From: a virus
Lineage: Duplodnaviria > Heunggongvirae > Uroviricota > Caudoviricetes
IMG/VR virus record: IMGVR_UViG_2671180296_000011
Coordinates: 1-23,719 of that record
Direction: 5' to 3' (one strand)
Length of the DNA stretch: 23,719 nucleotides
Part shown: one piece after another, positions 5,768-5,848 of the stretch
Layout of the letters: the number at the start of each line of letters is the position of its first letter
Position numbering within the stretch: position 1 is the first letter of the stretch
Position numbers and translations under genes: made by a program
Notes under the pieces: generated by a model
What the model was told of the DNA's origin: nothing
Databases searched by the model: none
What the model saw: the letters and a program-made list of their open reading frames with translations, nothing else

Positions 5768-5848
5768 TGGACCGCCATCGAGGACTCGAACCCCGCACCA
5801 ACAACCCTGTTATCGTGTCGTCTGCTCTTCCTGATGAGCTAATGGCGG
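5768..5848 (-). tRNA. tRNA-like gene in the argN position, non-canonical anticodon arm
   Basis: Acceptor CCGCCAT/ATGGCGG, D-arm GCTC-ATCAGGAA-GAGC, T-arm CGGGG-TTCGAGT-CCTCG and CCA end are present. The anticodon region only pairs as ACGAC/GTTGT around an 11-nt loop. Confidence 0.4.

What the first reader, a model, noticed from the sequence alone, without database searches (positions are those of the whole stretch)
5768..5848. Middle tRNA of the ileZ-argN-argO-like cluster does not fold canonically
The flanking tRNAs (CAT and TCT anticodons) fold cleanly. The middle gene has good acceptor, D and T arms and a CCA end, but its anticodon region pairs only as ACGAC/GTTGT around an 11-nt loop instead of 5 bp plus 7 nt. 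It may be a degenerate tRNA, an unusual loop, or my manual fold may be missing the correct pairing.
Basis: seen in the sequence. Interest (0 to 1): 0.4.

Follow-up and report, generated by a model that had tools for sequence, protein, structure and literature searches.

The report
Anticodon-less tRNA-like gene in prophage
The middle gene of this prophage's three-tRNA cluster is a tRNA-shaped RNA gene with no usable anticodon loop, and it belongs to a conserved, apparently undescribed family of such genes that includes an unannotated copy in the E. coli K-12 chromosome.

Summary
Window 5848→5768 (minus strand) encodes an 81-nt RNA with a perfect 7-bp acceptor stem, D arm, T arm and encoded CCA. 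Its central arm is ACGAC/GUUGU around 11 nt, or alternatively a 7-bp stem with a 3-nt loop. ARAGORN and Rfam's tRNA model do not call it; NCBI's PGAP labels identical copies 'tRNA-OTHER'.

It occupies the argN slot of the ileZ-argN-argO cluster of Stx-type phages and matches the allele in Stx2e phage phiP27. It is not a point-mutated argN: both ends are identical to argN(UCG), but the central ~27 nt are a different sequence.

That centre is shared with a family of tRNA-like genes across Enterobacterales. Members have the same body and the same ACGAC/GUUGU stem, with loops of 4–11 nt and free sequence. One member lies just upstream of yahM. It is 81/81 identical in five non-coli Escherichia lineages whose adjacent leader is only 82–88% identical. 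A covariance model built without prophage copies scores the window element at 83 bits.

Best reading: a non-decoding tRNA-like RNA processed like a tRNA. Its function is unknown. Most E. coli prophage copies carry T-loop lesions, so the phage copy may be dispensable.

The parts
5768..5848 (-). 81-nt tRNA-like gene in the argN slot; no canonical anticodon arm
   Evidence: Sequence. Family covariance model R1 scores it 83.3 bits, E=5e-21, full length. Not called by ARAGORN or Rfam tRNA. Identical copies are labelled tRNA-OTHER in RefSeq.
5842..5848 (-). Acceptor stem, 5' strand CCGCCAU (C1-U7)
   Evidence: Pairs 7/7 with 5772-5778. Identical in argN(UCG) and in all family members.
5772..5778 (-). 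Acceptor stem, 3' strand AUGGCGG (66-72)
   Evidence: One compensatory change in relatives: U7-A66 becomes C7-G66.
5824..5839 (-). D arm: GCUC / AUCAGGAA / GAGC (8-nt loop with G18G19 and A20)
   Evidence: Pairs 4/4. The 8-nt D loop is the family type; true argN has 9 nt.
5801..5821 (-). Central arm in place of the anticodon arm: stem ACGAC (5817-5821) / GUUGU (5801-5805) around the 11-nt loop ACGAUAACAGG (5806-5816). Alternative fold: CGAUAAC/GUUGUUG with an AGG triloop.
   Evidence: The R1 alignment places the conserved stem here with a 9-nt insertion in the loop. Minimum-energy alternative. No U33 or 7-nt loop in either fold.
5779..5795 (-). T arm: CGGGG / UUCGAGU / CCUCG
   Evidence: Pairs 5/5 with a canonical T loop. 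Identical to argN(UCG). Lesioned (GCGGGU) in most other E. coli prophage copies.
5768..5771 (-). Discriminator U73 plus encoded CCA
   Evidence: Sequence.
5856..5931 (-). Upstream neighbour: tRNA with CAT anticodon (ileZ-like, annotated tRNA-Ile); 7-nt spacer to the tRNA-like gene
   Evidence: ARAGORN, Rfam 72.5 bits, annotation in homologous records.
5678..5754 (-). Downstream neighbour: tRNA-Arg(TCT) (argO-like); 13-nt spacer
   Evidence: ARAGORN, Rfam 71.7 bits.
5647..5664 (-). Terminator-like hairpin plus T-run just after argO
   Evidence: 7 pairs, 6 of them G-C, followed by TTTTTTGTAT. A consensus match only.
5972..7030 (-). Context: DNA methylase ORF immediately upstream of the tRNA cluster
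   Evidence: Pfam N6_N4_Mtase, E=5.9e-45. Same arrangement in phiP27 and GB089.
8512..9333 (-). Context: antiterminator Q ORF; the tRNA cluster lies in the Q-dependent late region
   Evidence: Pfam Antiterm, E=1.6e-49. That transcription comes from the late promoter is an inference.

Best explanation
The gene is an allele of the 'argN' position of the lambdoid ileZ-argN-argO cluster. It encodes a tRNA-shaped RNA that does not decode.

Inferred steps, not shown here:
- It is transcribed together with its two neighbours.
- RNase P cuts at C1, as for any pre-tRNA.
- The 3' end is trimmed back to the encoded CCA.
- The RNA folds into an L-shape with an intact acceptor/T-arm helix and D/T-loop elbow.

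In place of the anticodon arm it has an ACGAC/GUUGU helix capped by 11 nt with no U33 and no defined triplet. It therefore cannot read a codon. It also lacks C35, a major ArgRS determinant (established knowledge), so it is probably not charged with arginine.

It belongs to a family of such genes in Enterobacterales, present in phage tRNA arrays and as stand-alone chromosomal genes. In this family the tRNA body and the stem of the central arm are held constant while the capping loop drifts in length (4-11 nt) and sequence. That pattern implies selection on the tRNA body for something other than decoding, such as being bound, processed or modified by tRNA-handling proteins, or acting as a decoy or sponge for one. 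That role is unknown.

I put the probability that the window copy makes a tRNA-shaped non-decoding RNA at about 0.75, and the probability that this particular prophage copy still has a selected function at about 0.4.
For: Structure of the window copy:
- Intact acceptor, D and T arms, conserved tertiary nucleotides and CCA.
- A cloverleaf-like minimum-energy fold.
- No canonical anticodon arm.
- PGAP labels identical copies 'tRNA-OTHER'.

Relation to argN:
- Same slot and same flanks as argN(UCG), but a replaced centre.

The family:
- Same body with central loops of 4, 6, 7, 10 and 11 nt in Escherichia, Salmonella arizonae/diarizonae, Citrobacter, Buttiauxella and metagenome contigs.
- All 336 base-pair cells are paired, with one compensatory acceptor pair.
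- More distant members keep a helix with entirely different sequence: Brenneria, Lelliottia, Proteus.
- Model R1, built without any prophage copy, scores the window gene at 83.3 bits, against 47 and 45 bits for the neighbouring true tRNAs.

Purifying selection:
- The chromosomal Escherichia copy is 81/81 identical in five non-coli lineages, while the adjacent leader is 78-84/95 identical.
- Other subtypes are 95-99% identical between contigs whose flanks are 45-80% identical.

Expression signals:
- A promoter-like site matching 11/12 lies upstream of the K-12 copy.
- A weaker promoter-like site matching 9/12 lies upstream of one metagenome member, L172.
- A strong terminator follows the CCA in another member, L208.

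Ancestry:
- The central stem resembles that of argU tRNA-Arg(UCU).
Against: - No expression, processing or aminoacylation data exist for this gene.
- In E. coli prophages most copies with this centre have a destroyed T loop: 33 of 47 clusters, and about 1020 genomes against about 71. phiP27 has a T-stem mismatch. The phage-borne allele is evidently dispensable in many lineages.
- Intact prophage copies are nearly identical to each other, so they carry no independent signal of selection.
- The conservation figures are inflated by the search patterns, which fixed 24-25 of about 75-81 positions.
- Covariation within the core family is thin: one compensatory pair.
- No conserved neighbouring gene points to a function.
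Confidence: 0.7

Rival explanations
1. It is a plain dead relic. The argN gene lost its anticodon arm through an indel or recombination event, and the remnant is carried along because it sits between two useful tRNA genes. Any RNA it makes has no role.
For: - Most E. coli prophage copies with this centre also have a ruined T loop and are not annotated.
- Even canonical argN(UCG) copies often carry lesions.
- phiP27, an inducible phage, has a T-stem mismatch.
- There is no diversity among intact copies from which to show selection.
Against: - The centre is not decayed argN sequence. It is homologous to a centre that is perfectly conserved in the Escherichia chromosome and in other genera.
- In this window every body element is intact.
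- The same kind of gene is a regular member of phage tRNA arrays in other genera.
Confidence: 0.25
2. It is a working decoder with an expanded anticodon loop, for example a frameshift-promoting or recoding tRNA.
For: - Natural and mutant tRNAs with 8-nt loops do decode (yeast mitochondrial tRNA-Thr, PMC7609411; classical suf frameshift suppressors, from memory).
- The body and CCA are intact.
Against: - The loop is 11 nt with no U33 and no purine 37 in register.
- Relatives have loops of 4, 6, 7 and 10 nt with unrelated sequences, so no anticodon is conserved.
- A 4-nt loop cannot decode at all.
- C35, needed by ArgRS, is absent (established knowledge).
Confidence: 0.03
3. The conserved thing is a DNA site, not an RNA: an attachment or recombination site for integrases, as tRNA genes often are.
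For: - Sequence downstream of the chromosomal copies is an indel hot spot: yahM-region DNA is present or absent between Escherichia species.
- Family members sit next to accessory genes.
- B. cereus tRNA-Other flanks an island (PMC3399842).
Against: - No integrase lies adjacent to the element in the loci examined. The one truncated integrase, in S. arizonae, belongs to a neighbouring tRNA-Asn.
- Conservation covers the whole 75-81 nt, including the 5' half, and preserves base pairing.
- Promoter-like sites and a terminator frame the gene.
Confidence: 0.04

Closest known systems
argN, tRNA-Arg(UCG) of 933W-type Stx phages (here Stx2a_WGPS8, AP012540)
   Same: Same slot between ileZ and argO. 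Identical acceptor stem, D stem, T arm, discriminator and CCA. Near-identical spacers.
   Different: argN has a 9-nt D loop and a canonical arm, UCAGC/CUUCGAA/GCUGG. The window gene has an 8-nt D loop and ACGAC/11 nt/GUUGU, making it 4 nt longer with no anticodon.
The unannotated middle gene of Stx2e phage phiP27 (AJ298298), and the 'tRNA-OTHER' features of RefSeq E. coli genomes
   Same: Same gene: the phiP27 cluster is 98.7% identical over 301 nt, and 23 listed RefSeq records carry a 100% identical 81-nt copy labelled tRNA-OTHER.
   Different: phiP27 carries a G50·G64 T-stem mismatch. In phiP27 only ileZ and argO are annotated.
Chromosomal tRNA-like gene upstream of yahM in Escherichia (K-12 NZ_CP132594.1 344560-344640); not annotated, and I found no description of it
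   Same: The first 33 nt are identical. Same body, same ACGAC...GUUGU stem, 81 nt, 87% identity overall.
   Different: The centre is ACGACAA/CCAGGA/UUGUUGU and the T loop is UUCGAGG. It is a stand-alone gene with its own promoter-like site and an ~80-nt leader, and it is perfectly conserved across species.
tRNA-Other, the pseudo-tRNA of Bacillus cereus (PMC3399842)
   Same: A predicted tRNA-like gene that does not function in translation. It is thought to have been recruited as a structural element of a regulatory RNA and receives the same 'Other' label from annotation.
   Different: No sequence relationship was tested or is expected. It flanks a genomic island and works within a longer transcript. 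No phenotype is known for the present gene.
Stable 'species 1/2' RNAs (rnaC, rnaD) in the phage T4 tRNA cluster (from memory, not tested)
   Same: Non-decoding stable RNAs encoded within a phage tRNA gene cluster and processed with the tRNAs; function unknown.
   Different: Different phage group. Similarity of sequence or structure was not examined here.
tRNAs with expanded anticodon loops (8-nt loop of yeast mitochondrial tRNA-Thr, PMC7609411; frameshift suppressors, from memory)
   Same: A tRNA body whose anticodon loop is not 7 nt.
   Different: Those keep a defined anticodon and do decode. Here the loop length and sequence are not conserved among relatives.

Membership tests
Canonical decoding tRNA (specifically argN, tRNA-Arg UCG) | 7-bp acceptor stem, D arm with A14/G18G19, T arm with a TΨC-type loop, 3' CCA | tested here: met
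   Pairs 7/7, 4/4 and 5/5; T loop TTCGAGT; encoded CCA.
Canonical decoding tRNA (specifically argN, tRNA-Arg UCG) | 5-bp anticodon stem closing a 7-nt loop with U33 and a defined anticodon (UCG for argN) | tested here: not met
   The options are 5 bp plus an 11-nt loop, or 7 bp plus a 3-nt loop. There is no U33 in register and no TCG.
Canonical decoding tRNA (specifically argN, tRNA-Arg UCG) | Recognised by tRNA gene finders or models at their normal thresholds | tested here: not met
   ARAGORN makes no call. Rfam RF00005 gives no hit at its gathering score or at E<=10. PGAP gives only 'tRNA-OTHER'. tRNAscan-SE itself was not available.
Canonical decoding tRNA (specifically argN, tRNA-Arg UCG) | Aminoacylation by ArgRS and use on the ribosome | not testable with these tools
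   A20 is present, but C35 cannot be assigned. This needs charging assays or tRNA-seq.
Anticodon-less tRNA-like family defined here (acceptor CCGCCAU/AUGGCGG, stem ACGAC/GUUGU) | Shared acceptor stem, 8-nt D loop NNCNGGAA, T arm CGGGG/UUCGAGN/CCUCG | tested here: met
   Alignments A3 and A4; table.
Anticodon-less tRNA-like family defined here (acceptor CCGCCAU/AUGGCGG, stem ACGAC/GUUGU) | Central stem ACGAC/GUUGU capped by a loop of non-canonical length or sequence | tested here: met
   The window has the stem plus an 11-nt loop. Relatives have 4, 6, 7 and 10 nt.
Anticodon-less tRNA-like family defined here (acceptor CCGCCAU/AUGGCGG, stem ACGAC/GUUGU) | Significant full-length match to a covariance model built from other members only | tested here: met
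   R1 gives 83.3 bits, E=5e-21, model positions 1-77. The neighbouring true tRNAs score 47.3 and 44.6 bits.
Anticodon-less tRNA-like family defined here (acceptor CCGCCAU/AUGGCGG, stem ACGAC/GUUGU) | Evidence of purifying selection on the copy in question | tested here: inconclusive
   The signal is strong for chromosomal members. Prophage copies with this centre are either near-identical or T-loop-lesioned.
Pseudo-tRNA recruited as regulatory RNA (B. cereus tRNA-Other type) | tRNA-like element embedded in a longer regulatory transcript, with a deletion phenotype | not testable with these tools
   The K-12 relative has an ~80-nt conserved leader. Transcripts of the yahM region are reported (PMC12288877, PMC7649339), but none was mapped to the element.
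Expanded-loop frameshift or recoding tRNAs | Enlarged loop (8-9 nt) that keeps U33 and a conserved extended anticodon | tested here: not met
   The loop is 11 nt, and loop content is not conserved among relatives.

The most novel reading that the evidence does not exclude
Enterobacterales, including E. coli K-12, carry a previously undescribed conserved tRNA-like non-coding RNA that descends from a tRNA-Arg(UCU)-like gene. It has given up decoding and works through its tRNA body, for example as a substrate mimic, sponge or decoy for a tRNA-binding enzyme or toxin. Temperate phages carry their own copy in their tRNA arrays for the same purpose. The window gene would be the phage version.
Probability: 0.3. 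Interest if true: 0.7.

Novelty: new variant of a known kind. Interest (0 to 1): 0.5.

Why it matters
- **Phage tRNA arrays.** These are usually read as codon-usage compensation. Here, about a third of the ileZ/argO clusters sampled (47 of 139) carry in the argN slot a gene with this centre that cannot decode. Such phages, including the Stx2e phage phiP27, lack a CGA/CGG-reading argN.
- **An overlooked E. coli gene.** The same tRNA body with a free-running loop is strictly conserved in chromosomes. E. coli K-12 has a copy where only the doubtful ORF yahM is annotated, and that ORF starts inside the gene. If the family has a function, this would be an overlooked stable RNA in the best-studied bacterium.
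- **A testable case.** It offers a clean way to ask what a tRNA body does when freed from decoding.
- **Annotation.** The result explains the recurrent 'tRNA-OTHER' calls and suggests that yahM should be re-examined.

Tried and rejected
- **Rfam.** Searches of the window gene and of the K-12 copy at E<=10 gave only a chance-level T-arm match to mascRNA and unrelated hits. Only the 74-nt Salmonella copy passes as tRNA (38 bits).
- **Antisense target.** A search of the window for matches to the 11-nt loop on either strand gave 3 matches at up to 2 mismatches: the loop itself and two same-strand matches, so no complementary site. About 1.4 matches are expected by chance.
- **Conserved partner gene or integrase.** Neighbours differ in every lineage, so there is no functional hint from context and no att-site support.
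- **CsrA-type loop motif.** The loop motif C-N-GGA seen in the Escherichia, Salmonella and Citrobacter copies resembles a CsrA-type GGA hairpin or a tRNA-Pro NGG loop missing U33. I dropped both ideas because other subtypes have GUAC, UUUU, CAUUAA or AGUUUAU loops.
- **ArgR box.** I considered an ArgR box in the K-12 promoter's inverted repeat (TGAATGT-N8-ACATTCA). The spacing does not fit the ARG-box consensus as I remember it, and I did not pursue it.
- **Pairing of base -1 with the discriminator.** An 8-bp acceptor stem, as in tRNA-His, is ruled out because -1 is always A while the discriminator varies among U, C and A.
- **Literature.** Searches for yahM with tRNA-like, ileZ/argN/argO, tRNA-OTHER and pseudo-tRNA found no description of this gene or family. 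The phiP27 papers are not in the held library, so I cannot say what their authors wrote about argN.
- **MAFFT alignment of distant members.** Brenneria, Lelliottia, Proteus and true argN misalign in the central region of A3. I therefore ran pair counts only on the core set, A4.

Full report
**What is at the coordinates**

Read on the minus strand, window 5848→5768 is CCGCCAU UA GCUC AUCAGGAA GAGC AG ACGAC ACGAUAACAGG GUUGU UGGUG CGGGG UUCGAGU CCUCG AUGGCGG U CCA. The acceptor stem (7/7), D stem (4/4) and T stem (5/5) all pair. U8, A14, G18G19, A20/A21, a canonical T loop and an encoded CCA are present.

The two neighbours are ordinary tRNAs. The CAT-anticodon gene at 5856-5931(-) scores 72.5 bits and the TCT gene at 5678-5754(-) scores 71.7 bits.

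The middle gene is not called by ARAGORN, by the Rfam tRNA model at its gathering score, or at E<=10 on the isolated region. ViennaRNA folds it as a cloverleaf whose central arm is CGAUAAC/GUUGUUG with a 3-nt loop. Neither gives a 7-nt loop with U33.

**What the cluster is**

The 301-nt cluster matches 289 phage records. The best match is Stx2e phage phiP27 at 98.7%, where only ileZ and argO are annotated. Next come Stx2 phages at about 92%, where ileZ, argN and argO are annotated.

Aligned with Stx2a_WGPS8, the window gene is identical to argN(UCG) over most of the first 28 nt and over the last 28 nt. The region from the D loop to the variable loop is a different sequence, 4 nt longer. This is a replaced centre, not accumulated point mutations.

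The window context is a lambdoid late region on the minus strand, in this order:
- DUF968 protein, RusA and antiterminator Q (8512-9333)
- DNA methylase (5972-7030)
- the three tRNA-type genes
- a terminator-like hairpin (5664-5647)
- a TerB-family ORF in the position where stx sits in Stx phages
- STnc100, holin and lysozyme

**How common it is and how it is annotated**

Among 5,426 complete E. coli genomes, the best match per record to the 81-nt gene falls as follows:
- 24 records at >=99% identity
- 47 records at 95-99%
- 1,020 records at 90-95%
- 4,099 records at 80-90%

All 60 best records listed, drawn from the first two classes, are labelled 'tRNA-OTHER' by PGAP.

The 90-95% class has the same centre but a wrecked T loop (CGGGG-GCGGGU-CCCCG). 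The sampled records of that class carry no annotation for the element.

Of those 47, 33 have the T-loop lesion, and ARAGORN calls none of the 47. The 15 viral contigs with the variant centre and an intact T loop all have a centre identical to the window's, one of them in a different ileZ/argO background.

**The unexpected relative**

The 80-90% class is a chromosomal locus. An 81-nt element lies immediately upstream of, and overlaps, the annotated start of yahM in K-12. It shares the first 33 nt with the window gene and has the same body. Its centre is ACGACAA/CCAGGA/UUGUUGU.

Across E. albertii, E. whittamii, E. ruysiae, Escherichia sp. E1V33 and a divergent 'E. coli' species representative, the element is 81/81 identical. 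The 95-nt leader next to it is 78-84/95 identical, and sequence further out is unalignable or deleted.

A promoter-like site, TTGACA-16-CATAAT (11/12), lies about 90 nt upstream and is conserved. The yahM ORF starts at the ATG inside the 3' acceptor strand. It is not conserved in the other species and has no Pfam match.

RNA-seq papers report transcription of the 'yahM' region (PMC12288877, PMC7649339). That is only indirect evidence for the element itself.

**A family**

Pattern scans of one genome per species and of metagenomes recover the same acceptor stem, D arm, T arm and ACGAC/GUUGU stem with different caps:

| Cap length | Loop sequences | Source |
|---|---|---|
| 4 nt | GUAC, AUAC, UUUU, AUAG | metagenome contigs (discriminator C) |
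| 6 nt | CAUUAA, CAUCAA | metagenome contigs (discriminator A) |
| 6 nt | CGGGAU, CUGGAA, CAGGAU | Salmonella and Citrobacter |
| 7 nt | CAUUUAA, AGUUUAU | Buttiauxella and metagenome contigs |
| 10 nt | AACCAGGAUU | Escherichia chromosome (as aligned) |
| 11 nt | ACGAUAACAGG | this window |

The discriminator base varies among U, C and A.

More distant members with the same acceptor keep a helix of unrelated sequence: Brenneria 7 bp, Lelliottia 6-8 bp, Proteus 8 bp.

On a 16-sequence core alignment that excludes all prophage copies, all 336 pair cells are standard pairs, against 32-53% when the partners are slid. One acceptor pair is compensated, U7-A66 to C7-G66.

Within subtypes the element is 95-99% identical between contigs whose flanks are 45-80% identical, and the few differences fall mostly in the cap and the D loop.

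Some members are stand-alone genes:
- One has a 9/12 promoter-like site.
- Another has a 12-bp terminator six bases after the CCA.

Others sit in arrays such as ileZ-like → tRNA-like → tRNA-Gly, or with argO-like and Cys-like genes. Neighbouring protein genes are not conserved between lineages, and no integrase adjoins the element.

A covariance model from the 16 core sequences matches the window gene end to end at 83.3 bits (E=5e-21). The two flanking true tRNAs score 47 and 45 bits. The central stem resembles that of K-12 argU, which is ACGAC/CUUCUAA/GUCGU. This suggests descent from a tRNA-Arg(UCU)-like gene.

**Interpretation**

What is shown:
- The gene has a complete tRNA body and no decoding arm.
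- It is an allele of the argN slot.
- Its centre belongs to a family in which the body and stem are conserved while the cap is free. This is the reverse of what is seen in real tRNAs.

What is inferred:
- It is co-transcribed with its neighbours and processed by RNase P and 3' trimming to an 81-nt L-shaped RNA.
- It is not charged by ArgRS (no C35) and does not enter translation.
- The family is kept for a body-dependent role.

That role is unknown. I found no partner gene, no antisense target and no literature.

The closest described analogue is the B. cereus pseudo-tRNA tRNA-Other (PMC3399842). From memory, the stable species 1/2 RNAs of the T4 tRNA cluster are a phage parallel.

**Caveats**

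- The conservation figures are partly built in, because the scans fixed 24-25 positions.
- Covariation in the core set is a single pair.
- The prophage alleles themselves give no evidence of selection, and most are lesioned. A dead relic therefore remains a serious rival for this particular copy (about 0.25).
- A decoding role with an expanded loop, and a pure DNA-site role, are unlikely.

**Verdict**

The finding is real. At the annotation level it is already flagged as 'tRNA-OTHER' and left unannotated in phiP27, so the element itself is not new. Its membership of a conserved anticodon-less tRNA-like family, with an unannotated K-12 member, appears to be undescribed in the literature I could search. 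I rate it a new variant of a known kind (pseudo-tRNA or tRNA-like RNA), with interest 0.5.

Noticed in passing
L003 2502-2582 (E. coli K-12 NZ_CP132594.1 344560-344640): An unannotated 81-nt tRNA-like gene, 87% identical to the window gene. It is 81/81 identical in five other Escherichia lineages. ARAGORN calls it 'tRNA-Ser(gga)' with the anticodon at position 38; RefSeq annotates nothing here except yahM.
   Followed up: yes
L003 2572-2817 (yahM): The annotated yahM start codon is the ATG inside the 3' acceptor strand of the tRNA-like gene (CGATGGCGGTCCA gives MAVQ…). The ORF is not conserved in E. albertii, E. whittamii or E. ruysiae and has no Pfam match, so yahM may be a mis-call or at least mis-started.
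   Followed up: partly
L003 2370-2413: A conserved promoter-like site TTGACA-16-CATAAT (11/12), with an inverted repeat TGAATGT-N8-ACATTCA over the -35. It may be an operator for an unknown regulator. The leader also contains a 10-bp hairpin (AGCCUGACAG…CUGUAAGGCU).
   Followed up: partly
window 5073-5504 (-): A TerB-family ORF, followed by a small DUF3927-type ORF in homologous genomes, occupies the position downstream of the tRNA cluster where stxAB sits in Stx phages.
   Followed up: partly
window 4648-4846 (-), 11776-11950 (-), 18914-18965 (+): Rfam gathering-level hits to STnc100 (148.7 bits), the sok antitoxin RNA (116.3 bits) and DicF (73.8 bits). These are prophage-borne small RNAs elsewhere in the window.
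   Followed up: no
L001 3030-3193 (phiP27): phiP27's ileZ has C13→A, a D-stem mismatch, and its middle gene has a G50·G64 T-stem mismatch. Both differ from the window, which is intact at these positions.
   Followed up: partly
L040, L078, L129, L093, L052 (IMG/VR contigs): Further odd alleles of the middle gene:
- L040 and L078: loop CCUUUAA (called 'tRNA-Lys ttt', with C33).
- L129: a 6-nt loop called 'cg'.
- L093: a canonical TCG arm combined with the GGCGGGU T-loop lesion.
- L052: a TCT anticodon.

The arm and T-loop modules appear to recombine between alleles.
   Followed up: partly
L166/L171/L191 about 5350-5600; L204; L207: tRNA arrays in metagenome contigs carry the tRNA-like gene next to an ileZ-like tRNA(CAT). 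It is followed by tRNA-Gly(UCC) or by Cys-like and further tRNA genes, so the tRNA-like gene travels with tRNA(CAT) in several array types.
   Followed up: partly
NZ_CP091840.1 56081-56161 (90-kb plasmid): An identical 'tRNA-OTHER' copy on a plasmid record; there are 11 plasmid places in all. This may be a phage-plasmid.
   Followed up: no
window 5628-5834 (+): A 68-aa GTG ORF on the opposite strand overlaps argO and the tRNA-like gene. It is almost certainly spurious.
   Followed up: no
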